From NCBI GenBank assembly GCA_963807105.1, contig CAWEAM010000010.1, forward strand, positions 324,773-388,772: a stretch of DNA of 64,000 nucleotides. Direction: 5' to 3'. The position numbers and the translations under genes are program-made. Shown here piece after piece: positions 1-13,297 of the stretch (position 1 is the first letter of the stretch; every line of letters starts with the position of its first letter). Below the pieces are notes generated by a model. That model was given only the letters and a program-made list of their open reading frames with translations, was not told the DNA's origin and did not search any database. The stretch is from an uncultured Acidobacteriota bacterium (GTDB taxonomy: Bacteria > Acidobacteriota > Vicinamibacteria > Vicinamibacterales > UBA2999).

Positions 1-536
1 GTCACGGTCGCGCACATCAACCTGATCGGCCTCGACGCACTCTCGCGCGAGCTCGGCGAGGACCGCGCGATGAGCCTGCTCAGCGATGTCGTCGGCGGGC
101 TCGATGAGGCCGCGGAGCAGCACGGCGTCGAGAAAGTGCGGACGATCGGCGCTTCGTATCTGGCCGCGTCAGGCCTCTCGCTGGAGCGGCCCGACCATAC
201 TGCGCGCATGGTCGAGTTCGCGCGTGAGGTCGTTCGCATCGTCCGTCGATTCAACGCGGAGCGACGGACGAACCTTGGCGCCCAGATCCGCATCAACGCC
301 GGCCCGGTGATTGGCGGCCTGATCGGGCGGCGCAAATTCATCTACGACCTCTGGGGCGACACTGTCCGCCTGGCGCGCCGCATCGAGTCCGACGGACAGG
401 GGTCCATCGTGGTCACCGAAACCGGTGTACGAGCGGGTACACGAGCTGGTGCCTTTCGGAATGCCGACGCAGATCGAGGTGCAGGGGATCGGTACCTGTC
501 GAGCTGTACCCGGTGCTGGAGGAGGGGATCGCATGA
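1..536 (+). CDS. Class III adenylate/guanylate cyclase-like domain, 5'-partial, two frameshifts (~421, ~497); catalytic residues degenerate
   Basis: Frame from base 1 reads VTVAHINLIGLD...GVEKVRTIGASYLAASG...INAGPVIGGLIGRRKFIYDLWGDTVRLARRIES, continues in other frames as VYERVHELVPF...IEVQGIG and VELYPVLEEGIA*; the TGA at 534-536 overlaps the ATG of the next gene. Confidence 0.8.
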
Positions 537-1987
537 ACGACCTCCTCGGCTTCCTGCGCCAAGAGGGCGTCTGGGCGGTCGCGCTCGCGGTGGGCCTGCC
601 GCTCGCGCTCATCCTCGCGACCGAATTGGGCTTCGCGCTCGCCCGCCGGCGGCATCCCGCAACGGTCTGGATACGGCGGACGCGCATCTGGGTGCTGCCT
701 CCGATCGCCGCCGTCCTCTACCTCCGCGTCGTCCTGGGGTTGTCCGACGACAACGGTTGGGTGCGCCTCGCCGCGACGGCCACCTGGGTCGCGATCGTGA
801 TCGTCGCACTGGGCGCTGCCAATTCTTTGGTATTCGAGGCGGCCGCCGTCGGCAGCTGGCAGCAGCGCGTGCCGCGGTTGCTGCGCGATCTGGTCCGGAC
901 CCTCCTCGTCGCGTTCGCGGCGGCGCTGGCCTACTCGTTCATCTGGGACCGCGAGATCCAGGGGGCGCTGGCCGCGCTCGGTGTCACTTCCATTGTCGTC
1001 GGGCTGGCGCTGCAGGAGCCCCTCGGGAATCTCTTCTCGGGGCTCATGCTTCTCATGGAGCGACCCTTCGAGATCGGCGACACGATTGAGGTCGGCGGCG
1101 TCTCCGGGAAGGTGAAGGAAATCAACTGGCGATCGGCCCACATCGAAGCACTGGGGGGCATGATCCAGGTCGTTCCGAACTCGACACTCAACAAGGAAAC
1201 GATCAGCAATTACTCGCGGCCGTTACCGGTGCGCATGGAGATGCTGGAGCTCGCCTTCAGCGCTGACGATCCGCCAAACAAGGTGTGCGAGGCGCTGCTC
1301 GATGTGGCCAGGACCACCAAGGGCGTGCTCCAGTCGCCGAAGCCGATCGCTGCGACCATCGGGTACGGCAACCACGCGGTCAACTACCGCCTGATCTGGC
1401 GCGTGGCCGAAGAGGATCGGTGGTCGGTGCGCAATGACCTGATCACCCGCATCTGGTACATGGCGCGGCGCCACGAGCTGACCATGCCCTATCCGGTGAA
1501 CGTGAACATCCAACATGTGACCAAGGCCCCTTTCACGAAGGCCGCCGCCTCTCCGGCCGAGACTCTGGCGGAAATCCCTCACCTGCCACGCGTGCCCGTC
1601 GAGCAGGGCGGCGTCCGGGTGCTCGCGTTTGGCAAGGGCGAAGTGATCTTCGACGAGGGGCAACTGCTCGACGGTGTCTATCTGCTGGTGACGGGCGCGG
1701 TCTCGATGCAGCTGGTGCGTGAAGGCGAAGTCGCGGAGATCGCAGCGGTCGGGCGGGGCGAGTTCTTCGGTGAGGCCGGCATGCACGGAACGCAGACGGC
1801 AGATTCCCGGGCCGTTGCCGTCGACGACACCCAGCTCCTGCTGCTTGAACCAGACACCGTGCGACTGTTATTCGAGGCGAGCCCGACGCTCGCTCGCGAC
1901 ACCGGGCGGGTGCTCGACGTCAGGCGCAAGGCGCTGCAATCGGCTCGCAGTGCGTTGCGCCGCCAACCACGGGTGAGCAAGCGATGA
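533..1987 (+). CDS. MscS-family mechanosensitive channel with C-terminal cyclic-nucleotide-binding domain
   Basis: TM helices, GLALQEPLGNLFSG, ERPFEIGDTI, INWRSAHI, VPNS; C-terminal GEVIFDEG...GEFFGE; start MNDLL at the ATGA overlap. Confidence 0.9.
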   Translation: MNDLLGFLRQEGVWAVALAVGLPLALILATELGFALARRRHPATVWIRRTRIWVLPPIAAVLYLRVVLGLSDDNGWVRLAATATWVAIVIVALGAANSLVFEAAAVGSWQQRVPRLLRDLVRTLLVAFAAALAYSFIWDREIQGALAALGVTSIVVGLALQEPLGNLFSGLMLLMERPFEIGDTIEVGGVSGKVKEINWRSAHIEALGGMIQVVPNSTLNKETISNYSRPLPVRMEMLELAFSADDPPNKVCEALLDVARTTKGVLQSPKPIAATIGYGNHAVNYRLIWRVAEEDRWSVRNDLITRIWYMARRHELTMPYPVNVNIQHVTKAPFTKAAASPAETLAEIPHLPRVPVEQGGVRVLAFGKGEVIFDEGQLLDGVYLLVTGAVSMQLVREGEVAEIAAVGRGEFFGEAGMHGTQTADSRAVAVDDTQLLLLEPDTVRLLFEASPTLARDTGRVLDVRRKALQSARSALRRQPRVSKR

Positions 1988-2326: not shown

Positions 2327-3052
2327 ATGGAACTACTACGTCGACGCCTTCTACTGCTTGCCGAGAGGACGAGCTGGGCATTCGGCCTTGCCGGTCTCGT
2401 GTGGTGGGGGGCGTTCCACATCGGGGTCGCCAGTTCGATGCGGCACGACCTGGAGCGCTTCGCGGCGCTTCAGGGTATCGCGACGCCGGCCGGTACGCCG
2501 GACCAGTCCCTCTGGTCTCCAAATCGCGTCAGTGCCTGGCGTAACGCGCTGAGCGAACCGGCCCCCGATCCGCTTGCGGTGCTCCGAATCCCGAAGATTC
2601 GACTCGAGGTCGCAGTCCTGCCTGGCACCGCCGACGCCACGCTCGACCGCGGCGTCGGTCACATCGAGGACACGGCACAACCGGGAACGGACGGGAACGC
2701 GGGCATCGCCGGGCATCGGGACGGCTTCTTCCGCGGACTGAAGGACATCACCCCGGGCGACACGATCGAGCTCGACACGCTCCAGGGGAAGGACGTCTAT
2801 CGTGTCGAGCGAACGTGGGTGGTCGACCCGGAGGATGTCTCGGTGCTGGACCCGACGCCCACGCGGGCGCTGACGCTGGTCACTTGCTATCCCTTCTACT
2901 TCGTCGGCTCCGCCCCGCAGCGATTCATCGTCCGTGCCGTGCGTGTCGGCGGCGAAATCGCAGACCGCGCCGTGATCCACTGCACGCGTCGCGTGTCCGT
3001 CGTGCGCAAGCTGGCCGTTCGCCGCGGTGGTCTGGCCTTCTCACGTCTCTAA
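2327..3052 (+). CDS. Class D sortase
   Basis: N-terminal TM; LRIPKI, GVGHI, GNAGIAGHRDGFF, LTLVTCYPFYFVGSAPQRFIVRA give the His/Cys/Arg triad. Confidence 0.92.
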   Translation: MELLRRRLLLLAERTSWAFGLAGLVWWGAFHIGVASSMRHDLERFAALQGIATPAGTPDQSLWSPNRVSAWRNALSEPAPDPLAVLRIPKIRLEVAVLPGTADATLDRGVGHIEDTAQPGTDGNAGIAGHRDGFFRGLKDITPGDTIELDTLQGKDVYRVERTWVVDPEDVSVLDPTPTRALTLVTCYPFYFVGSAPQRFIVRAVRVGGEIADRAVIHCTRRVSVVRKLAVRRGGLAFSRL

Positions 3053-3093
3053 ATGGTTCGCGAAGACACGCAGAGCAGAATGGAGAGAGTTTT

Positions 3094-3852
3094 ATGACAC
3101 GTGCAATCGTTCGGATGGTGCTCGTCACGGCAGTCGTGTGTTCGACGGCCGTCGTGTCGCTGGCGCAGACCACGAGCTCGACGGAAACCAAGACATTCGA
3201 AGTACTCGCGGTGGACGGCAACCAGCTCGTCGTCAGGCTGCCGGAAGGCACGAGGGAGCTGACGGTCGCCGATGACTTTCGCTTCACTGTCAACGGACAG
3301 CAGTTGTCCGTGCGCGACTTGAGGCCCGGTATGAAAGGCACGGCCACCATTACGACGCGAACGACGGTCACGCCGGTCACCGTCACCGAGGTGAAGAACG
3401 GCACGGTCGCGCACTCGGCTGGTGCCACCATCATCGTACGGACCGACGAGGGATTCCGGTCGTTCACTCAAGGGGATATCGACAAGCGCGGCGTGAAAAT
3501 CATGCGCGCCGGCAAGCCCGCGCAGGTGTCAGATTTCCGTGAAGGTGATCGGCTGACCGCAACCATCATCACGTCCAAGCCGCCGCAGGTCCTGACCGAA
3601 AAGGAAGTGCAGGCTACCCTCGCGGGTGCGGGTGGAACAGGCGGCGGCGCCCGTCCGGCGGCAGCAGCGGCCCCTTCGGCCTCTTCGGCACCTGCGTCCG
3701 CCGCGGCACCTGCGGGCTCGGCCGCAACGTCGGCGGGCGCGACCAGAGCACTGCCGAAGACCGCCAGCTCGTGGCCGGTGCTCGGGCTCGCGAGCGTCCT
3801 GTTCCTCGCGATGGCGCTCGCCCTGACTACCAGGCGCCGCTTCGTCCGCTAG
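3094..3852 (+). CDS. Sortase substrate: signal peptide, two OB-fold-like beta repeats, Ala/Pro linker, LPKTA sorting signal
   Basis: C-terminus ALPKTASSWPVLGLASVLFLAMALALTTRRRFVR = LPXTA + TM + basic tail; directly follows the sortase. Confidence 0.88.
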   Translation: MTRAIVRMVLVTAVVCSTAVVSLAQTTSSTETKTFEVLAVDGNQLVVRLPEGTRELTVADDFRFTVNGQQLSVRDLRPGMKGTATITTRTTVTPVTVTEVKNGTVAHSAGATIIVRTDEGFRSFTQGDIDKRGVKIMRAGKPAQVSDFREGDRLTATIITSKPPQVLTEKEVQATLAGAGGTGGGARPAAAAAPSASSAPASAAAPAGSAATSAGATRALPKTASSWPVLGLASVLFLAMALALTTRRRFVR

Positions 3853-3869
3853 TCAATCTGCTATCAGCT

Positions 3870-3902
3870 GGCCGCGCTCGCGCGCGACGCCCGAGCGCGG
3901 CC
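3870..3902 (+). terminator. GC-rich hairpin after the sortase-substrate gene
   Basis: GGCCGCGCTCG...CGAGCGCGGCC inverted repeat; no clear U tract. Confidence 0.4.
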
Positions 3903-3972
3903 CGCCTATCTGTCACCGCCTCATCCCTGCGCTGTCTCTCGCGGATCGCAAGCTGCGGCCCTGCCTGGTCCC

Positions 3973-4071
3973 TACGGTATTCCGGAACCCCTCCGCCACG
4001 TCGGACGAACCATGTCGGCGGGCGAGCGCCGCATGTGAACGCCCCGCGGAGTTTCCCCAATGAATCAGGCC
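3973..4071 (+). promoter_or_regulatory. Promoter module copy 2 (upstream box + CAATGAA box; no correctly spaced -24/-12)
   Basis: TACGGTATTCCGGAACCCCTCCG (3973) and CAATGAATCAGGCC (4058), same ~85-nt spacing as the other copies. Confidence 0.55.
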
Positions 4072-4147
4072 GGTGCACGTTGCACGCCGCCTGAACTCAG
4101 AAAATCGGACACCATTGGATTACTCCGATCCAGCAAAGGAGTGCGCC

Positions 4148-4874
4148 GTGTTCATTAAGCTCGCTGCAGAGTCGATCGGCACGTTCTGGCTCGTTCTCGG
4201 AGGTTGCGGCAGCGCGGTACTCGCGGCCGCCTTCCCCGACGTTGGAATCGGATTGCTCGGGGTGTCACTGGCTTTCGGTCTGACGGTGCTCTCAGGGGCG
4301 TACGCGCTCGGCCCGATCTCGGGCGGTCACTTCAACCCCGCTGTCTCCGTCGGCTTGTGGGCGGGAGGCCGCTTTCCCGCCGGCCTGCTGTTGCCTTACA
4401 ACCATGGCGCAAGTCTTCGGTGGCGTCGTCGGCGCGGGCGTGCTGTACTTCATCGCCAGCGGCCGCGCCGATTTCAGCCTCGCCGGAGGCTTCGCTTCTA
4501 ACGGCTACGGCGTGCACTCACCCGGCAGGTATTCGCTTGCGGCGGGGTTCGTGTGCGAAGTCGTGATGACATTCATGTTCCTGGTCGTCATTCTCGGCAC
4601 CACTCACAAACGCGCGCCAGTGGGATTCGCCGGCCTCGCAATCGGCCTTGCACTCCCACTGATCCATCTGATCAGCATTCCTGTGACCAACACCTCGGTC
4701 AATCCGGCGCGCAGCATCGCCACCGCGCTGTTCGCTGGAGACTGGGCGCTTCAGCAGCTCTGGCTGTTCTGGCTTGCTCCGATGATTGGCGCCGCCAGCG
4801 CGGGCGTGACATACAGGGCGATCCTCGAAGGCGCAGTCGTTGAACCTCCGGTGACCGGACGCGCCGCTGCGTAG
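4148..4874 (+). CDS. aqpZ: Aquaporin Z, frameshift near 4400
   Basis: [57 protein letters not shown]; split over ORFs 4073-4501 and 4404-4874. Confidence 0.92.
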
Positions 4875-4994
4875 TTCACTCTCGAGGTGGCCAGCTCATC
4901 GCCGTGTTTGAGAGAGCCCGCGGTCAGGTTCTCGATCGCTGTTTTTCCGTAGGTTCCGCGGATGCCCCGCCCTCCGGTTGCCCCGGCCGATACG

Positions 4995-5131
4995 CACGGT
5001 ATTTCGGGCGCCCTCCGTGGAATTGGGGAGATCTGCGCGGCGGTTCGGGTGGCGAGCCGCAGCCACGTCGTGAGATCCTCAATGAATCCGGCCATTTCTG
5101 GTTTTTTCTCCTCCACGGCACGCGCTCTGCA
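4995..5131 (+). promoter_or_regulatory. sigma54-type promoter module copy 3
   Basis: CACGGTATTTCGGGCGCCCTCCG (4995), CAATGAATCCGGCC (5080), CGGCACGCGCTCTGCA (5116-5131). Confidence 0.72.
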
Positions 5132-5473
5132 GCCGGCTTGTCCGCCTGTCACTCCTCGTCGAGAAGTTCCAGACGCGCGACCGGAGTAGTCAGTGTCCGA
5201 CTGACCAGTTGGAGTGATATGGCTCGGTTGGTTGGAAAGCGGAACGCGGTTCACGGCGCAAGTAGATGAAATCGCGGATGCCGTCGCAGCCGGCGGGCGT
5301 GGTCAGCAACATGGCCTCGATCACCCGTCGTGCGTCGCCGACAGCCGCATCGTTTTGACTGCCGCACCGTTTTGACTGGCCGAGTGCGGTCGCAATGTGC
5401 TTGGATAGCATCCGGTCGGTGGCGCGCTTTAGAGAGTAACGGCTCTTCGCGATCGCGGCCCTAGGAGGACACA

Positions 5474-6025
5474 ATGAAACGGCTTGTTGTGGGAATGATT
5501 GCAGTGGCGTTTCTGGCATTGACGGCCCGCACGGCCGTGGCTCAGTCCAAGACCATCTCGTCTGAGATGCGAACGGAAACGGGTGTCGTCGAAGCGATCG
5601 AAGCCTCGACACGCTCGGTGACGCTCAAGAAACCGGACGGAACCTTCGTGACGACGGTCGCGGGGCCGGAGGTGAAGCGTTTCTCGGAGATCAAGGTCGG
5701 CGACAAGATCACCGCTCGCTACTACGAGAACCTCATTATTCGGCTGAAGCGGCCCGGCGAGCCGGACGTGGTCAGCCAGACGAAAGGCACGACCCCTTCC
5801 GAGCAAGTTCTCCCGGGTGGCACGAAAGCCAAGCAGGTGACCATCACGGCCACGATTGCGGCCATAGACATGAACGTGCCATCGGTGACTTTCACCGGGC
5901 CGAACGGCTGGAAGTACACCTCCAAAGTGGTGGACAAGGAGGCGCTCGGCAAAGTGAAGGTCGGCGACAAGTTCGACATCGTCTGGACCGAAGCGATGCT
6001 GGTGTCGCTCGAGCCCGGCAAGTAG
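5474..6025 (+). CDS. Exported protein with tandem OB-fold-like repeats
   Basis: AGGAGG RBS, signal peptide, two repeats (GVVEAIEASTRSVTLKKPDG...IKVGDKI; ATIAAIDMNVPSVTFTGPNG...VKVGDKF). Confidence 0.85.
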   Translation: MKRLVVGMIAVAFLALTARTAVAQSKTISSEMRTETGVVEAIEASTRSVTLKKPDGTFVTTVAGPEVKRFSEIKVGDKITARYYENLIIRLKRPGEPDVVSQTKGTTPSEQVLPGGTKAKQVTITATIAAIDMNVPSVTFTGPNGWKYTSKVVDKEALGKVKVGDKFDIVWTEAMLVSLEPGK

Positions 6026-6040
6026 GTGACTGGGTTACAG

Positions 6041-6068
6041 CCGGGACGATCCGCCGTGATCGTCCCGG
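6041..6068. terminator. Hairpin between convergent genes
   Basis: CCGGGACGATC...GATCGTCCCGG. Confidence 0.45.
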
Positions 6069-6133
6069 ACCGCCGCCAATGATCGGAGGTGGCGCCGCGC
6101 GTGATGAGCACTTGATGACTCGAGCCTGAGACG

Positions 6134-6830
6134 TCAGTCTGACGGCGTCAGCGCTGCAGACGCCATTCCATCGAAGAAGTCTCTGAGCGGCCAATTGGTG
6201 GCGGCAACGCGAGCGCCACCGAGAATGAACGCCTCCTGCCGGAGCACGAAACGCAAGGCTTCCAGCATCTGGCCAACGCCCGGCGGAGGGCTGCTCAACA
6301 TTTCTTCAGTGACGCCGAAAGCGGATCGGTGGGCCGCAAGCGCCGACAGCTTGCGGTCCAGTAGATGTATCGCATCGAACGACACCGCGAGCATGCCGGC
6401 TGCGGTGCCAAAAACGTCCGGGTCGAGCCCGTCAGTGATGCCTTTGCCTCGACTCTTCTCCGCGAAGACCCGAAACACATCGCGCTCGATGGTGCAGTAG
6501 AACAACCGCTCGGGCGCCGTCGGCCCCATCACACCACTCGAAAAGAACGCCGCGGCCGTGGCGCGCTGAATCGCCAGGTGGTCGGGATGGTAATAGCCGC
6601 CATGCGGATCGAACGTGACAATCACGTGCGGCGTCCTCTCCTGAATGATGTCTCGAATGGCCGCTTCTACTTCGAGCTTGTCGATATTCGCCAGCGCTCG
6701 CGGGTCGTCATGTCGTTGCCGATCCTTGCGGGCAGAATCGTGGAATCCGAGAAGCACGGGTTCTTCGATGCCGAGCCTGGCGCAGGACATGCGCAATTCC
6801 TCCGCGTATTTTGCGGCGCGGACGATCCGC
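6134..6830 (-). pseudogene. PIG-L/MshB-family deacetylase, N-terminus missing
   Basis: EELRMSCARLGI, LGFHDS, TFDPHGGYYHPDH, KLSALAAHRS; no AHPDDE N-terminal motif. Confidence 0.72.
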
Positions 6831-7350
6831 GGCGAGCTGCATGTCAGAGAGCTGGAAGGCGGTGCCGACACGACGCTCGGTGGAGATCTCGGCGCCAATC
6901 GCGGCTTTCCGGTGATCTCCCCAAATGGGAAGCAGATCGCCTTCGGACGCTCGTGCCGGGACCGCCCGTGCAGCGTCCTCTGTTTCTCACGAACCTCGCT
7001 GATGGAGAAACGCGCTTGGTGCGCGACGACTGTGGTGGCCGCCCGCGGCAATGGCTCGATGAACAGACGCTGCTCGTCGAAACGTTCGGCGCGGGGCTGA
7101 ACTCCTTTGTGGTGGTCGAGACGTGTGACGGAACGCAGCGTCCGCTGCTCTCATCGATTGATCGCCGGGTCTCCAATCCCCGTGTCTCACCAGACGGCCA
7201 CTGGCTCGCGTTCGACGCCGTGCACCCCGGCGGATCGCCGGTGGTGGCGGTCGCGCGATGATCACCAACGTCGCGCCCATTGCCGCGCCTGATCAGATCA
7301 TCTTCGTGCTGGGCGACTATCGGGGTGATGTCTGGATGATGGATGTTTGA
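6830..7350 (+). pseudogene. C-terminal PD40/TolB-like propeller fragment (kinase/regulator type)
   Basis: PVISPNGKQIAF, NPRVSPDGHWLAF, then IIFVLGDYRGDVWMMDV*; no start or N-terminal domain. Confidence 0.6.
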
Positions 7351-7446
7351 GAAGTGTCCGCGCGCCGAGCACGCCCTCCCTCCCCTCGAACCAGTCTCTG
7401 CGGCGCGTCTACTCCATGAGCCGCAAAGGGTAGAACGACGGCCTGA

Positions 7447-7476
7447 TTGACATGTGACCATATGGTCACATATAAT
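7447..7476 (+). promoter_or_regulatory. sigma70 promoter with ArsR operator palindrome in the spacer
   Basis: TTGACA (7447), 18 nt, TATAAT (7471); perfect 20-bp palindrome ATGTGACCATATGGTCACAT at 7452-7471. Confidence 0.85.
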
Positions 7477-7482
7477 CGATCA

Positions 7483-7827
7483 GTGTTCGACGACGATTCG
7501 GTGTTCAAGGCGCTCGCGGATCCAACACGTCGATTCCTTCTCGATCTGCTCTTCAAACGTGACGGTCGCACGCTGACGGAGCTCGAGTCGGAGTTGGCGA
7601 TGACGCGGTTCGGTGTCATGAAGCACCTGCGCGTGCTCGAGCGTGCGGGCGTCGTCGTCACGCGCAGGTCGGGCAGGGAGAAGCTGCACTTCCTGAACCC
7701 GGTGCCGATCCGAATGATTCACGATCGCTGGATCGACAAATACACTGGGCGTCGCGTGTCGGCGCTGTTGGATCTCAAAACCGAGTTGGAGGCGAAGTCA
7801 TGGCGACAGAGTCAAAAGCGGGCATAG
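7483..7827 (+). CDS. ArsR/SmtB-family regulator, probably leaderless
   Basis: VFKALADPTRRFLLDLL, MTRFGVMKHLRVLE, HFLNPVPI. Confidence 0.9.
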   Translation: MFDDDSVFKALADPTRRFLLDLLFKRDGRTLTELESELAMTRFGVMKHLRVLERAGVVVTRRSGREKLHFLNPVPIRMIHDRWIDKYTGRRVSALLDLKTELEAKSWRQSQKRA

Positions 7828-8297
7828 CGACGACGCAGGTCTACGAGGTCTACATCAAAGCCTCGCCACAGGCCATCTGGGACGCCCTCACGTCGCCGGA
7901 ATGGACGACGAAGTACGGCTACCAGGGCGCCGTCGAGTACGAGCTACGTTCGGGCGGCGCGTACCGGGCGCACTCTACTTCGCAGATGAAGTCGTTTGGC
8001 TTGCCGGACGTCGTCGTCGACGGCGTGGTCGAGGAAGCCGACCCGCCGAAAAAGCTGGTGCACACCTATCGCTTCCTGTTCAGCGACGCCATGAAAGCCG
8101 AGGGCTTCACGCGCGTCACGTGGGAGATCGAGAAAGTCGCAGCCGGCTTCTCGAGGCTCACCGTGACTCACGAGCTCGAGGGCGCGCCGATCATGGCCGG
8201 CATGGTCGCCAGTAAGTTCTCCGAGCAGGGCACGGGTGGCTGGGCCTGGATTCTCAGCGACATGAAGTCGCTGCTCGAGACCGGCAACTCGATGTAA
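7800..8297 (+). CDS. SRPBCC/AHSA1-like protein
   Basis: QVYEVYIKASPQAIWDALT...GWAWILSDMKSLLETG; usual ArsR partner. Confidence 0.88.
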   Translation: MATESKAGIATTQVYEVYIKASPQAIWDALTSPEWTTKYGYQGAVEYELRSGGAYRAHSTSQMKSFGLPDVVVDGVVEEADPPKKLVHTYRFLFSDAMKAEGFTRVTWEIEKVAAGFSRLTVTHELEGAPIMAGMVASKFSEQGTGGWAWILSDMKSLLETGNSM

Positions 8298-8431
8298 GAC
8301 CGGAGTTCAATGGAACGAGGAGCGCGGATCGCTGACGAGGCACTCGAGTACCGCCCGGCCTCGCGGCATTAGGCGGTAGCCGACCTCGAGGCTGGGCGGT
8401 CCGCGCAGGCAACCCTTGTCTTGCCTGACAC

Positions 8432-8568
8432 TACGGTATTTCGGGCGCGCCCTCCGGGAGGGTGGGGTGATCCGCGCCGCCCTTCGCCGGGCACACCTGC
8501 GGTGCGTCGCCAGATCCTCAATGAATCCGGCCATTTCTGCTTTCCGCTCTCACGGCACGCGGTCTGCA
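8432..8568 (+). promoter_or_regulatory. sigma54-type promoter module copy 4
   Basis: TACGGTATTTCGGGCGCGCCCTCCG (8432), CAATGAATCCGGCC (8519), CGGCACGCGGTCTGCA (8553-8568). Confidence 0.72.
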
Positions 8569-8770
8569 GCCCACCTGCCCAACTGTCACCGAACGGCGAG
8601 GAATTCGGAGACGCGCGACCTGCGCGTCAGTCGTCGACTTCACTGTTGTTGAGTGACATTGGATCGGTTCGTCGGAAAACGAAATGCCCTTCATGGGCTC
8701 GCAATGTGCATCGCGTCACCGGCGCGCTGAGAGCAAAACTTTTCGCGATCGCGGCACTAGGAGTGCACAC

Positions 8771-8855
8771 GAGACGACGTTCTCGTATTAGCCAGCGGTG
8801 ATCTTGCGATCGTCGTGAAAGTGCCGTCCGGTTTCTTGAGCGTGACCGTGACCAT
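8771..8855 (-). pseudogene. Inverted remnant of a paralog of the 5474-6025 gene
   Basis: Minus strand reads VTLKKPDGTFTT then KITAG*YENVV, versus VTLKKPDGTFVTT and KITARYYENLII. Confidence 0.7.
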
Positions 8856-8882
8856 CACGGGACGATTACGAGGAACGAATCC

Positions 8883-10674
8883 ATGCAAAACGGCATCGCG
8901 CAATGGATGGCCAACCGAGCGCGGGGGCTTCTCGCGGCTGCGTTAGTAGCCGCGACGTTTATCTCGCGGGCTGATGCTTGGGCGCAGCCTGCGCCCACGC
9001 CCGGAGCCTCGACGCGGCCGAACATCGACTGCGGCGCGGCCGTGGGCGATCGGAACACCTGCGATGCCGATACTTCGTCCGGCGTCGTGTTGGTCCGGCA
9101 GGCCGGCGAGGGTAACTGCGTGCTCGGCAAAACCTGGGGCTTCGAGGCGAAGGCGGTCTGGGTCGCCGATGGATGTCGTGGCACGTTCGCGTTCACCGAC
9201 GATCGTCTGACCGTGACCTGCGCGGCTGCTGCAGGCGCACGCGAGGTCTGCGAGGCGAACACCGCCGCTGGCGTTGCGCTCGTCAAGGGCTCGCCCGCGT
9301 GCATGTTGGGTCGGACCTGGGGCTACGACCGGGATGGCATCTGGGTGTCGGACGGCTGCCAGGGGACGTTCGTCCTCACCACCCGCGGCGCGCTGGAATG
9401 CGGGTCGAATGGTGCGCGTCAACACTGCGACGCCGACACGTCCGCCGGCGTCGTGCTGGCGCGCTCGACCGCCACGGCGGCGTGTGTGCTGGGCGACTCT
9501 TGGGGCTATGACGCCACCGGCGTCTGGGTTGACAAGGGCTGTCGTGCCGAGTTCGTGCTGGGCAATTCAGAGCCTGGCGGTCCGGAAAACCAGGACCTCG
9601 ACGCTTTCTTCGGACTGCTCGAACCATACGGCCGGCTGCGCGGCCACGTTGCCTGGTTCAACGACGAAATCGAAGTGCAGGACGACGCCTCGTTCCTCGG
9701 TCTGAACTTTTCGACCCGCGGCGCGACGAAGTTCTTCGCAGCGACCGAGTGGGGTGTACAGCCTCGTACGCGGCGGACAGGTGTTCAACGCAGGCGGGAC
9801 CACCAGCGGCGGCGGCTTTCCAACGCTGGACGATCCGCAGGCGGACCAGGTGTTCAGTGCCAGGCTCGGCTACGTCGGCGTCGACTTCGGGCCGTTCGGG
9901 CGCATTGCCGCCGGCAAGCAGTATGCGGTTCACACCGATGTGACCTTGTACACAACAGACCAATTCACCGTGTTCGGCAGTCAGGCCAGCGCGACATACA
10001 CAGCGGGCACCGACGGCGGCTTCCTGGGCAGCGGCCGCGCCGACCAGACGCTGACGTATCGCAACACGCTCTTCAACGTGCTCCGGCTCGGCGGCCAGTT
10101 GCAGTTCAGGACCGCCGACAACAGCGAGACGATCGATGGGGCAGGCGTGTCCGCACAGTTGACCGTCCTGCCAGGGGTCCGCTTCGGTGCGGCCTACACA
10201 AAGAGCTATTTCGACGACGAGGTCGCGGCCCGCATTCGCGGGCTCGGCGACGATGCCGAGTTCATTGCGCTTGGCGCCAGCATCAACTGGAAGATGTTCC
10301 AGGCCGCCGTCGTCTATGCCGAACAGAACAACGGCGACCTCGCGCGCCTTGAATTGCCGGGCAATGTCGTCGAAGCGGTTGCCTTCGACGCCGACGGCTT
10401 TGAAGCGCTGTTGCGCGTCAACGTCCGGGGATTCACCGTCTACGGTGGGCTCAACTACTACCGGCCCGACGTCGTCGATCCAATCCTCAATCCCGACTTC
10501 CGAACGAGATATGCCATTGGTGGTCTGAACGTCGGGATCTTGCCGAACATGTACGCCTACGCGGAAGCACGCCTCTTCGACGACAGCGTGGGCCCGCAGG
10601 GTGAGGAAGGGTTCGATGTCCTTGCCATCGGTGTGCATTACGGCTTCAGCGTCAAGGGGTTCCATCGCCGGTAG
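8883..10674 (+). CDS. DUF3011-repeat / porin fusion, frameshift near 9755
   Basis: Signal peptide, three Cys-rich repeats (CDADTS.GV.L....C.LG.TWG....VWV.DGC..TF), then Gram-negative porin (RLGYVG, GRIAAGKQY, GSGRAD, IGVHYGF). Confidence 0.8.
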
Positions 10675-10749
10675 AAATTCCCGCTCGTCTGCAATCGGCT
10701 CGATCTGAAAAGCGCCCAACGAGCCGGAGTTAGTGATCGGTGGCGCGAC

Positions 10750-12022
10750 ATGGAGTTTGCTGTGTTGAATCTCTTCCAACCCACACTGTTCACGCTTCTG
10801 TTCCTGGTTCTGTCAGCTACCTTTGCGAGCGCGCAGCAAGTTGAGGTGGGCCGCGAACAGATCACGCTTCGGGGAACCGTGGAGGCCGTCGACCCCGCGG
10901 CCCGGACGGCCAGAATCCGCGGGGATAAAGGGATCGTCGTCACGGTCGACATTCCGCAGTCGGTCGTCCATCGACCAACTCAAAGTCAGCCGACGTCGTG
11001 AGCCTGTCGTACTACGACGTGGTCACCGTCCGCCCGAAAGCTCCTGGCGAGCCCGCCGTTGACCGGATCGATCCTCCGACCACGACGGCGACGGCCGGCG
11101 CTCTGCCCGGCGCCACGCTGGCGTCGAGCGCGTGTCAACGGTCACCATCACCGGCTGGGACCCTAAAATGCGAACGGTGACGTTCACGGGCCCCGGGGGT
11201 ACCAGTTACACTCGTCGTCTGCTGGATACGACCGACTCGGCCATCCTCGCGGCGCTGAAGGTTGGCGATCGCGTGGACGTGACGCGCACCGAAGCCGTTC
11301 GCTTCGCGGTCGAATCGCGCACGGCGGCGGCGCAAGTGGATCCGACCGACTCATTTCGCCATCGAGTCACGATCTCGGCAGTTTGGGGATGGGACAATCA
11401 GTTCAGCGGCAACATGATTCAGGAGGCCACGGGGCGAACGGCCACTGGCCTGCCGATCAACTTGAACGAGACGACCTACGACGACGTGTACGGCCGGATG
11501 GCGATGTTCAAGATTGGCGTCGGCTACCGCACGACGCCCCGCACCGAAGCAGTGGTCAACTTCGTCATCTCGCGGAGCTCGTCCGAGACCGCGAACATCG
11601 GCACCGTGTCCAACACCCCGCTGTTCGTGGACTTCGATGACTACAACTACTGGGGGTTCGAAGCCGGCCAGCGGTTCTTCTTCACCCGCGTCCGTTTCAC
11701 GCCCTATGTGGGTTACCTGTTGGGCCTCAACCGGTACGACGACATCAGAGGCACCTTCGTCGATGTCCCCCTGAATGTGACGCCAGGCCTCGCAGCGCAA
11801 GACGGCAAGTTCTTCGAGAAGTCCTGGGCGTTCAGCCTCGGCCCCACCGGCGGCGTGCTCATCGGCGTGGGGCCCTTCGAGGTGATGGCGGAGACGCAGC
11901 TGCGCTTCATGGGCGGCCTGTCGGATGTCGACTGGCTCGTCGAGGAGGGCCTGCGCGACATCAACAGCGAGAGCTCGCGCTGGTCGTTTCCAGTTCAGCT
12001 CGGCGCCAGGATTCGGTTCTGA
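10750..12022 (+). CDS. Tandem OB-fold-like domain fused to outer-membrane beta-barrel, frameshifted (~10970-11135)
   Basis: GTVEAVDPAARTARIRG, LSYYDVVTVRPKAPGEP, VTITGWDPKMRTVTFTGPGG, LKVGDRV, then amphipathic strands ending GARIRF. Confidence 0.75.
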
Positions 12023-12108: not shown

Positions 12109-12879
12109 TCAGCGGCGCCGTTTTGCGCTCACAGACAATCCGAATAGATTGATGTTCACCATTCCTGGAAGGACCCGCTCATCCTGAACGCCATGAAGGT
12201 TTGTTCTAGCAATGTTGAAGTGGAGACTGACCTGCTTCTTGATCAACGGAGACACAAAGTCGCAGATCCGATAGCCGAAACCGACGGTGGTTGCCGGCTT
12301 CCAGTCGTGACCCCCCTGCCCGTCAGGAAGCATCACCAGCATGACGCCTATCGCGGGCATCGTGAATCGTCCGACCTCGAAAACTCCGATCTGCATCCCG
12401 ACGATGCCGTAGGTCGGCGTTGCTGGATATCGTGCCTGCATCCACAATCCAGTCAGATGAACTCGTTGAAAAAACGAGCTCTTCACGACTTTGTCGTTGA
12501 CATTGCCGCCCGACGTCGCCAGCGATGAACGCCGGCGTTGGAGAATAAGTAAAGGCTGGTCGTCCCAGTGGCGGAGAATGTAGCAGGCGCTCGCGATCAG
12601 TTCATCGACTCCCGCATAACCCTGACATTCCGCCTCGAGCCAAGCGGGCGGTTCGGGACGCTTCTTGCGTTCCCAGATCGGCTGATCGTTGAAGTTACGC
12701 GCGACCCTGTTCCCCCACTGCTCAAACCACTTCTCCCACGCGTGGTACTCTCTGAGCCACTTTGCAAGCTCGTCAAACCTTTGCTCGGCCTCCGACCCTC
12801 CCATCAACCCCTGCTCTTGAGCCACAGTAGGAGCTGCGCTCGCCACCAGGGCCAGCCCAACAAACACCGCGATCTTCAT
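12109..12879 (-). CDS. Exported hypothetical protein (helical N-half, beta-rich C-half)
   Basis: GGAGG RBS, MKIAVFVGLALVASAAPTVA signal peptide; open frame. Confidence 0.7.
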   Translation of the reverse strand: MKIAVFVGLALVASAAPTVAQEQGLMGGSEAEQRFDELAKWLREYHAWEKWFEQWGNRVARNFNDQPIWERKKRPEPPAWLEAECQGYAGVDELIASACYILRHWDDQPLLILQRRRSSLATSGGNVNDKVVKSSFFQRVHLTGLWMQARYPATPTYGIVGMQIGVFEVGRFTMPAIGVMLVMLPDGQGGHDWKPATTVGFGYRICDFVSPLIKKQVSLHFNIARTNLHGVQDERVLPGMVNINLFGLSVSAKRRR

Positions 12880-13297
12880 GAACCCTCCAGAAGGGATCCC
12901 GCTGCCACCGACTGTGAATCTGCGTTCCGTGGCGTCTTCGCCGGAATATCCACTCCGAAGTCGGCAGGCGATTCCGCCCGCCAAATCTTACGGATGAGCT
13001 TTAATTGCAGATCCTGCACCGCCTTTCAAGCGAAGTAAAGAATTTCGTCGGCAGCGTGTCTGGCGCGAAGCCGTGATGCACAAGGCTGCGCGCGGTGACG
13101 CGAAAATTCACACGGGAATGATTCACTGCGAATGAGGCACCGGTGCTGCAGCCGCAGCGGTAGTAGTGCGTCTCACTTTCCGTGCGCTCGTGGGTCACGC
13201 GCACGCCGCAGTAGGGCAATTGAGTCGGAGTGGGCCGTGCACGCCCCTATGATCGGCATGAGGCGGTGGGCTGCCAAGTCGGGGGTTTTCGGACTAG

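What the first reader, a model, noticed from the sequence alone, without database searches (positions are those of the whole stretch)
2327..12022. Diderm sortase system with one OB-fold-like module in three locations: wall-anchored, free and barrel-fused
Seen: a class D sortase is followed by an LPKTA-TM-basic substrate with two beta repeats (..DLRPGMK, ..DFREGDRL). The 5474 gene is a free exported tandem repeat (..IKVGDKI, ..VKVGDKF). The 10750 gene has a clear paralog of that tandem (YY..V..K.PGEP, LPG.T, VTFTGP.G, KVGD) fused to an outer-membrane barrel. Known: sortases are mostly monoderm, and this organism has porins and TonB receptors. Inference: an undescribed periplasmic relay or tether between peptidoglycan and outer membrane. 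Homology of the substrate to the other two is weaker.
Basis: partly seen in the sequence, partly recalled or inferred. Interest (0 to 1): 0.7.

Follow-up and report, generated by a model that had tools for sequence, protein, structure and literature searches.

The report
Acidobacterial sortase with shuffled envelope cassette
A double-membrane bacterium has a Gram-positive-style sortase gene beside one LPKTA-tagged protein that the sortase likely fixes to the cell wall; the two nearby look-alike proteins are real but belong to a separate, distantly related family and are optional neighbours, so the proposed wall-to-outer-membrane tether is unlikely.

Summary
The sortase (catalytic H130/C187/R199) and its LPKTA-TM-RRR substrate are real and tightly paired: 75 of 80 related loci. 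The host is a diderm whose relatives are Vicinamibacterales/Acidobacteriota.

The 'one module in three places' is really two families. The free protein (5474) and the barrel-fused protein (10750; three indels here, intact in relatives) share a tandem OB module, F. The substrate carries a different one, S. S is no closer to F (hhalign score 22-29) than to CusF (23-27), while F-CusF scores 42-50.

Co-occurrence is real but not specific to these three genes. In 150 order genomes, F lies within 10 kb of 7 of 25 S genes, a Ysc84-like gene of 10, aquaporin Z of 6, and the barrel fusion of 0. Only 4 of 21 S-positive genomes have the fusion. A second S subfamily shows no F in 80 loci.

Best reading: a dedicated diderm sortase-substrate pair, working like Shewanella's class GN pair but with a new cargo, inside a shuffled envelope cassette. 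A rare S-F fusion protein keeps an S-F partnership open. This scan noted the pair before on other DNA.

The parts
2327..3052 (+). Sortase, class D-like but below all class cut-offs; N-terminal membrane anchor; H130/C187/R199
   Evidence: present in 75 of 80 substrate loci
3094..3852 (+). Dedicated substrate: signal peptide, tandem OB module of family S (about residues 25-178), Ala/Pro stalk, LPKTA, TM helix, RRR
4073..4874 (+). Aquaporin Z-like gene, split over two frames here; a recurrent cassette member
   Evidence: 22 of 80 loci; within 10 kb of 6 of 25 S genes
5474..6025 (+). Free exported tandem OB protein of family F (CusF/DUF1344-like fold, without the CusF metal loop)
8883..10674 (+). 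DUF3011 repeats plus Gram-negative porin, split over two frames; an occasional cassette member
   Evidence: DUF3011 in 7 of 80 loci
10750..12022 (+). Family F tandem fused to a predicted 8-stranded outer-membrane barrel; three indels in this assembly; intact paralogue P0241 elsewhere in the genome
425..1987 (+). MscS channel with a cNMP-binding domain, upstream of the sortase; a loose neighbour
   Evidence: MscS hits in 5 of 80 loci

Best explanation
The sortase and its LPKTA-tagged neighbour form a conserved dedicated pair in which the sortase likely cuts LPKT|A and likely joins the tandem-OB protein to the diaminopimelate wall peptide, within a shuffled set of envelope genes that likely serves osmotic or envelope stress. 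Steps: (1) Shown: gene pairing, catalytic triad, sorting signal, diderm markers, MurE with DNPR. (2) Predicted: the OB folds and the 8-stranded barrel. (3) Inferred from sortase chemistry: Sec export, retention by the C-terminal helix, T|A cleavage, and transfer to the free amine of meso-DAP, which leaves the twin OB on a roughly 45-residue stalk in the periplasm. (4) Inferred from gene neighbours and the Shewanella analogy: a stress role. The free F protein and the F-barrel fusion are optional members of the same cassette (with a Ysc84-like protein, aquaporin Z, DUF481, DUF502, DUF3011-porin, DcaP, MlaE and MscS), not required partners.
For: Sortase in 75 of 80 GTDB substrate loci; within 3 kb of 23 of 25 S genes in 150 order genomes; in 48 of 69 anchored loci on short metagenome contigs. 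H-C-R is found in 70 of 72 sortase ORFs that match the H and C motifs. G000 has only three credible LPxTA proteins and two sortases. MurE DNPR points to meso-DAP (the meaning of the motif is recalled). Neighbour counts in 80 loci: F 28, Ysc84-like 26, aqpZ 22, an unknown large exported protein 19, DUF481 16, DUF502 14, barrel fusion 8, DcaP 8, MlaE 8, DUF3011 7; gene order varies. In Shewanella, the class GN substrate protects envelope integrity under cell-wall stress (PMC13712847, passages and Discussion).
Against: No cleavage, acceptor or phenotype is shown for any acidobacterial pair, and the Shewanella paper says its acceptor is unknown. S also exists as free exported proteins without any anchor, and two metagenome copies keep a TM tail with no intact LPxTG (L255, L281), so wall attachment is not essential to S function. 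DapF in G000 scores under its cut-off. The stress role rests on neighbours only. F still tracks S strongly (20 of 21 genomes), and an S-F fusion exists.
Confidence: 0.55

Rival explanations
1. The sortase processes S but does not link it to peptidoglycan. It releases S by hydrolysis, or joins it to another envelope acceptor such as a protein Lys or Gly, or a lipid amine.
For: Anchor-less S paralogues are common. The acceptor is unknown even in the best-studied diderm system. The host already has 6 OmpA_C/Pal-type domains for wall binding.
Against: The predicted mature N-termini of S, F and the F-barrel are Gln, not Gly, so they are poor N-terminal acceptors (inference). A conserved full LPKTA-TM-basic signal is a costly way to make a soluble protein when free S forms already exist.
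Confidence: 0.2
2. One reading: wall-anchored S binds F. It either binds the barrel-fused F, tethering wall to outer membrane, or binds free F, relaying a ligand from the small barrel.
For: F is found in 20 of 21 S-positive vs 15 of 129 S-negative genomes; it lies within 10 kb of 7 of 25 S genes (0.23 expected), while only 1 of 53 other sortases has F that close. Four of 5 fusion-bearing genomes have S. A natural S-F fusion exists (P0492/P0511, 2 members from two sources; S half E 9e-36, F half E 6e-58). F is fused to two unrelated barrels, the 8-stranded one and DcaP.
Against: The barrel fusion is not found in 17 of 21 S-positive genomes and is next to 0 of 25 S genes. Ysc84-like (10 of 25) and aqpZ (6 of 25) are equally tight neighbours. 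No F was found in 6 of 13 S-positive phylum genomes or in 80 loci of a second S subfamily (16 of them at least 8 kb). F occurs in 9 order genomes with no sortase hit and in 5 of 5 Proteobacterial plasmid regions with no annotated sortase. None of 390 F or F-barrel proteins has an LPxT signal.
Confidence: 0.15
3. The sortase polymerises S into a pilus-like periplasmic fibre through an S lysine, as class C sortases do.
For: A one-sortase/one-substrate arrangement. Several lysines (K33, K101, K131, K135) are 83-86% conserved in A4.
Against: The class C model scores far under its cut-off (75.4/160). K33, K101 and K131 are lost in divergent anchored members. The fold is OB, not pilin-like.
Confidence: 0.05

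Closest known systems
Class GN (marine/proteobacterial dedicated) sortase system: TIGR03784 sortase, TIGR03788 target, PdsO; Shewanella SO2194-2196 (PMC13712847)
   Same: Diderm host; one sortase gene beside one substrate with a sorting motif and C-terminal TM; acceptor unknown; envelope-integrity and tether roles proposed.
   Different: The sortase is far below the TIGR03784 cut-off (89/158.25). The cargo is a small tandem OB, not the inter-alpha-trypsin-inhibitor-family target. The motif is LPKTA rather than PQTST. No PdsO hit among the window proteins tested. The clade is Acidobacteriota.
Class D sortases of Bacillota (NF033746, NF058671)
   Same: Best-scoring models; LPxTA-type motif; adjacent dedicated substrate.
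   Different: Below both cut-offs; diderm host; different cargo.
CusF / DUF1344 / DUF5666 periplasmic OB folds; ModG/ModE TOBE tandems
   Same: F repeats match CusF at 96-97%. The S model matches OB folds (Z up to 6.1). Both models pick ModE/ModG tandems as weak Foldseek hits.
   Different: F lacks CusF's His/Met metal loop (alignment). S and F are tandem, separate families with no Pfam hit over cut-off for the window proteins.
OmpA/OprF-type outer-membrane-to-wall tethers
   Same: 8-stranded barrel (Z 17.7 to the OprF barrel) with a periplasmic appendix.
   Different: The appendix is an N-terminal tandem OB, not a C-terminal OmpA_C wall-binding domain (no PF00691 hit on P0241).

Membership tests
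Sortase superfamily | PF04203 over cut-off and His-Cys-Arg triad | tested here: met
   110 bits vs 26.6; H130/C187/R199
Sortase superfamily | Substrate with LPxTG-like motif, TM helix and basic tail | tested here: met
   LPKTA 220-224, helix 227-251, RRR; 120 of 120 homologues
Sortase superfamily | Transpeptidation onto a wall acceptor | not testable with these tools
   Needs biochemistry; MurE DNPR only suggests meso-DAP
Class D sortase (NCBIfam) | Score over the curated cut-off | tested here: not met
   NF033746 128.1/165; NF058671 134.8/140
Class GN system | TIGR03784 over cut-off | tested here: not met
   89/158.25
Class GN system | TIGR03788-type substrate | tested here: not met
   No TIGR03788 hit at E<=1; the substrate is a 252-aa tandem OB
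Class GN system | Diderm host with an adjacent dedicated substrate | tested here: met
Class GN system | Adjacent PdsO and two-component system | tested here: inconclusive
   No PdsO hit in 8 window proteins; regulators recur in up to 10 of 80 loci but were not typed
CusF metallochaperone (for F) | OB-fold profile similarity | tested here: met
   hhalign 95.7% and 96.9%
CusF metallochaperone (for F) | His/Met metal-binding loop | tested here: not met
   The loop is a gap in F; no His or Met in mature F is 70% conserved
One shared module (S = F family) | S closer to F than to generic periplasmic OB folds | tested here: not met
   S-F 22-29; S-CusF 23-27; S-DUF5666 14-24; F-CusF 42-50; shuffles at most 16. 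Neither HMM hits the other half of the fusion
OmpA-type tether (for the F-barrel) | 8-stranded barrel | tested here: met
   Predicted model of P0241, pLDDT 83.8; Z 17.7, rmsd 2.3, 131 aligned to 4rlc
OmpA-type tether (for the F-barrel) | OmpA_C peptidoglycan-binding domain | tested here: not met
   No PF00691 hit at E<=0.1

The most novel reading that the evidence does not exclude
Acidobacteria use a sortase to fix an OB-fold receptor (S) to the wall. S captures a second OB family (F) that is either free or displayed on small outer-membrane barrels, giving a new sortase-built link or ligand relay across the periplasm, perhaps with the Ysc84/SYLF-like neighbour moving lipid. The S-F fusion, the 20-of-21 co-presence and F's fusion to two unrelated barrels keep this open.
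Probability: 0.15. Interest if true: 0.75.

Novelty: new variant of a known kind. Interest (0 to 1): 0.4.

Why it matters
What a sortase attaches its substrate to in a diderm is stated to be unknown even for Shewanella (PMC13712847). This pair offers a small, simple substrate, an LPKTA motif conserved in 120 of 120 top homologues, and a likely meso-DAP wall, so the question becomes directly testable. It also outlines two unnamed periplasmic OB families (at least 3,148 S proteins at 90% clustering; 5,865 F-related clusters at 50%) and a recurrent envelope cassette in Acidobacteriota. The tether claim would matter more, but the genomic evidence weighs against it.

Tried and rejected
1. Complex prediction of S (A4, 25-180) with F (A5, 24-183): score 0.00 in two runs, verdict 'no answer'; not evidence either way. 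The barrel-fused F was not tested.
2. Whole-protein hhalign A1 vs A3 gave 72%, but off-register and including the signal peptides; A1 vs A2 gave 6.5%. Both were replaced by the repeat-level test.
3. PDB sequence searches with A1 and A3: nothing better than E 0.026. The S model is modest (pLDDT 59.5 overall, about 60-84 in the domain) and its Z of at most 6.1 is only middling. The F part of the fusion model was barely tested by the Z-ranked lists.
4. ESM Atlas: S under 0.9, so leads only (DUF5666, DUF1344, CusF); F 0.91 to hypothetical or 13% CusF clusters.
5. Sequencing runs: no RNA holder listed, and DNA shares of 0.05-0.07 only. The indels in 10750-12022 could not be checked against reads, so artefact versus pseudogene stays open. 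Artefact is likelier, since aqpZ, the porin and LpxC are also split.
6. S was not found on plasmids.
7. No 'longer' homologue search was run for S (the three searches went to other queries), so S-barrel fusions are only 'not seen' in the loci examined.
8. Literature: sortase+Acidobacteria gave 16 papers, none on this system by title or abstract; sortase+Vicinamibacter gave 0; Ysc84+aquaporin+bacteria+gene cluster gave 0; searches showed nothing on this cargo. Two recalled sortase surveys (Comfort and Clubb 2004; Haft et al. 2012) were not held, and subscription papers are not covered. No supplements were read.
9. Fisher P values overstate, because related genomes are not independent, so they are not relied on.
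Full report
SETTING. The window is G000:C10:324773-388772, in an 8.0-Mb assembly of 13 contigs that is 75% complete. Of 80 GTDB loci holding the substrate, 77 are titled Acidobacteriota or Vicinamibacterales-related; three carry other labels. The host has Omp85/BamA-family genes, LpxC, 22 TonB-receptor matches, 6 OmpA_C domains and a MurE with DNPR. It is therefore a diderm, likely with meso-DAP wall peptide (the meaning of the motif is recalled). Several genes are split by indels, including aqpZ, the porin and LpxC.

THE OBSERVATION. The sortase (2327-3052) passes PF04203 and TIGR01076 but no class model: class D 128.1/165 and 134.8/140, class GN 89/158.25. Its H130/C187/R199 triad is intact. 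The next gene (3094-3852) has a signal peptide, two beta repeats, an Ala/Pro stalk and LPKTA-TM-RRR. At least 3,148 relatives exist, and the top 120 all end in LP[KS]TA. The 5474 gene is a free exported tandem. The 10750 gene is in three frames here, with three indels against an orthologue that is 81% identical in DNA. An intact paralogue sits on C13 (P0241), and 696 relatives were found. The model of P0241 (pLDDT 83.8) shows an N-terminal beta tandem and an 8-stranded barrel like OprF/NspA/OmpA (Z 17.7, rmsd 2.3, 131 aligned).

ONE MODULE OR TWO. Free and barrel-fused modules are one family, F (hhalign 100%). I built deeper profiles (S 32 rows, F 185 rows, with the fusion protein left out), split them into repeats, and compared them with CusF (30 rows) and DUF5666 (29 rows) taken from related genomes. 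Within families the repeats match well: S1-S2 scores 96.7 and F1-F2 106.3. The four S-F pairs score 22-29 (40-83%), above column shuffles (at most 16) and barrel controls (at most 12 against S or F), and S1-F1 aligns in register over 49 columns. But S-CusF scores 23-27, S-DUF5666 14-24 and F-CusF 42-50 (96-97%). So S and F are separate families of one periplasmic OB superfamily, and F is nearer to CusF than to S. F lacks CusF's metal loop. The S model agrees with an OB fold at middling Z (at most 6.1). Each family has its own forms. S is sortase-tagged, free or TM-tailed. F is free, repeated two or three times, or fused to the 8-stranded barrel or to a DcaP porin. None of 390 F-type proteins has an LPxT signal. 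One natural S-F fusion exists (P0492/P0511, a 2-member cluster from JGI and ENA).

CO-OCCURRENCE. Sortase and S are tightly paired: 75 of 80 loci and 23 of 25 genes. In 150 order genomes at least 85% complete (G000 left out), S is in 21, F in 35, a sortase in 55 and the barrel fusion in 5. F is in 20 of 21 S-positive and 15 of 129 S-negative genomes. It lies within 10 kb of 7 of 25 S genes, against 0.23 expected, and of only 1 of 53 other sortases, so that link is real. The barrel fusion is in 4 of 21 S-positive genomes and next to 0 of 25 S genes. In the 80 GTDB loci (60 of full length) it appears 8 times, and all three genes together 4 times. The key control is other neighbours. A Ysc84-like gene, absent from this window, is in 14 of 21 vs 2 of 129 genomes and within 10 kb of 10 of 25 S genes; aqpZ is within 10 kb of 6 of 25. 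In the 80 loci the counts are F 28, Ysc84-like 26, aqpZ 22, an unknown large protein 19, DUF481 16, DUF502 14, DcaP 8, MlaE 8, DUF3011 7 and MscS 5, in varied order. Across the phylum (250 genomes), S is in 13 and F in 12, both in 7; in 6 S-positive genomes, all with the anchored form, no F was found, though only 13 candidates per genome were scored. A second S subfamily from metagenomes has 69 of 80 anchored copies, 48 of them with a sortase on the contig, and F in 0 of 80; the contigs are short, and only 16 loci reach 8 kb. F also occurs on 31 Proteobacterial plasmid records. The five regions I opened show no annotated sortase, though that gene table is incomplete, and one has YSC84 next door. 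Related genomes are not independent, so these are descriptive counts.

MECHANISM. Shown: the pairing, the triad, the signal and the diderm markers. Predicted: the folds. Inferred: export, cleavage at LPKT|A and transfer to meso-DAP, leaving a twin OB on a flexible stalk in the periplasm. Weakly inferred: an envelope or osmotic-stress role, from aqpZ, MscS, the small barrels and the Ysc84/SYLF-like neighbour (SYLF binds lipids in eukaryotes: PMC3105542, search listing only). I put this at 0.55, release or another acceptor at 0.2, an S-F tether or relay at 0.15, and polymerisation at 0.05.

WHAT IS KNOWN. Diderm sortase-substrate pairs are known as class GN. PMC13712847 (passages and Discussion read) links the Shewanella substrate to envelope integrity, raises a tether role, and says the anchoring site is unknown. 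PMC8703055 (passages) notes that proteobacterial sortases are usually classed as D. PMC3174227 (one passage) lists 6 sortases in Solibacter without comment. My searches found no paper on this cargo. The system works like class GN but is not a member by its models.

VERDICT. A real, widespread, apparently undescribed acidobacterial sortase-cargo pair inside a shuffled envelope cassette. The 'three locations of one module' is two families, and the tether is unlikely. New variant of a known kind; interest 0.4.

Noticed in passing
L090:10952-11443; G000:C5:351665-352153: A Ysc84/SYLF-like exported protein is the tightest accessory neighbour of the sortase-S pair (10 of 25 genes within 3 kb), but in G000 it lies on another contig, beside a DUF502-like gene.
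   Followed up: partly
P0492, P0511: Natural fusion of an S tandem and an F tandem with no sorting signal, seen in two sources; L202 may be another, but it is cut at the contig end.
   Followed up: partly
L015:7051-10400; L106, L107, L110-L115: A second acidobacterial sortase locus type with a DUF2911-like LPxTA cargo; in G000 a VWA-like gene (recognised by eye) lies between the cargo and the sortase, and the cargo is frameshifted.
   Followed up: partly
G000:C13:22678-23550; L100:8900-9898; L009: A third LPKTA cargo family with no Pfam match apart from the anchor; it has no sortase on its contig in G000 but sits near a sortase and F in G069.
   Followed up: no
L067:199-1872; P0246, P0272, P0274: F is also fused to a DcaP-type porin, and occurs as a double tandem before the 8-stranded barrel; the barrel also occurs alone (L018).
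   Followed up: partly
L195:451-2229: Sortase and S lie in one uninterrupted frame, with a signal-like stretch between them: a fusion or a lost stop codon.
   Followed up: no
window 7447-8297: Perfect sigma-70 consensus (TTGACA-18-TATAAT) at the start of an ArsR-type regulator plus AHSA1 gene pair.
   Followed up: no
window 70-1987: An adenylate/guanylate cyclase domain directly before an MscS channel that carries a cNMP-binding domain.
   Followed up: no
window 12109-12984 (-): A 290-aa ORF with no Pfam or NCBIfam match; it follows the barrel fusion in L070 too.
   Followed up: no
L034:9042-12308: A large unknown exported protein family recurs in 19 of 80 loci; G000 has four related copies elsewhere.
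   Followed up: no
window 2960-3052: The sortase runs about 28 residues past where most orthologue matches end (about residue 210): a lost stop or an assembly error.
   Followed up: no
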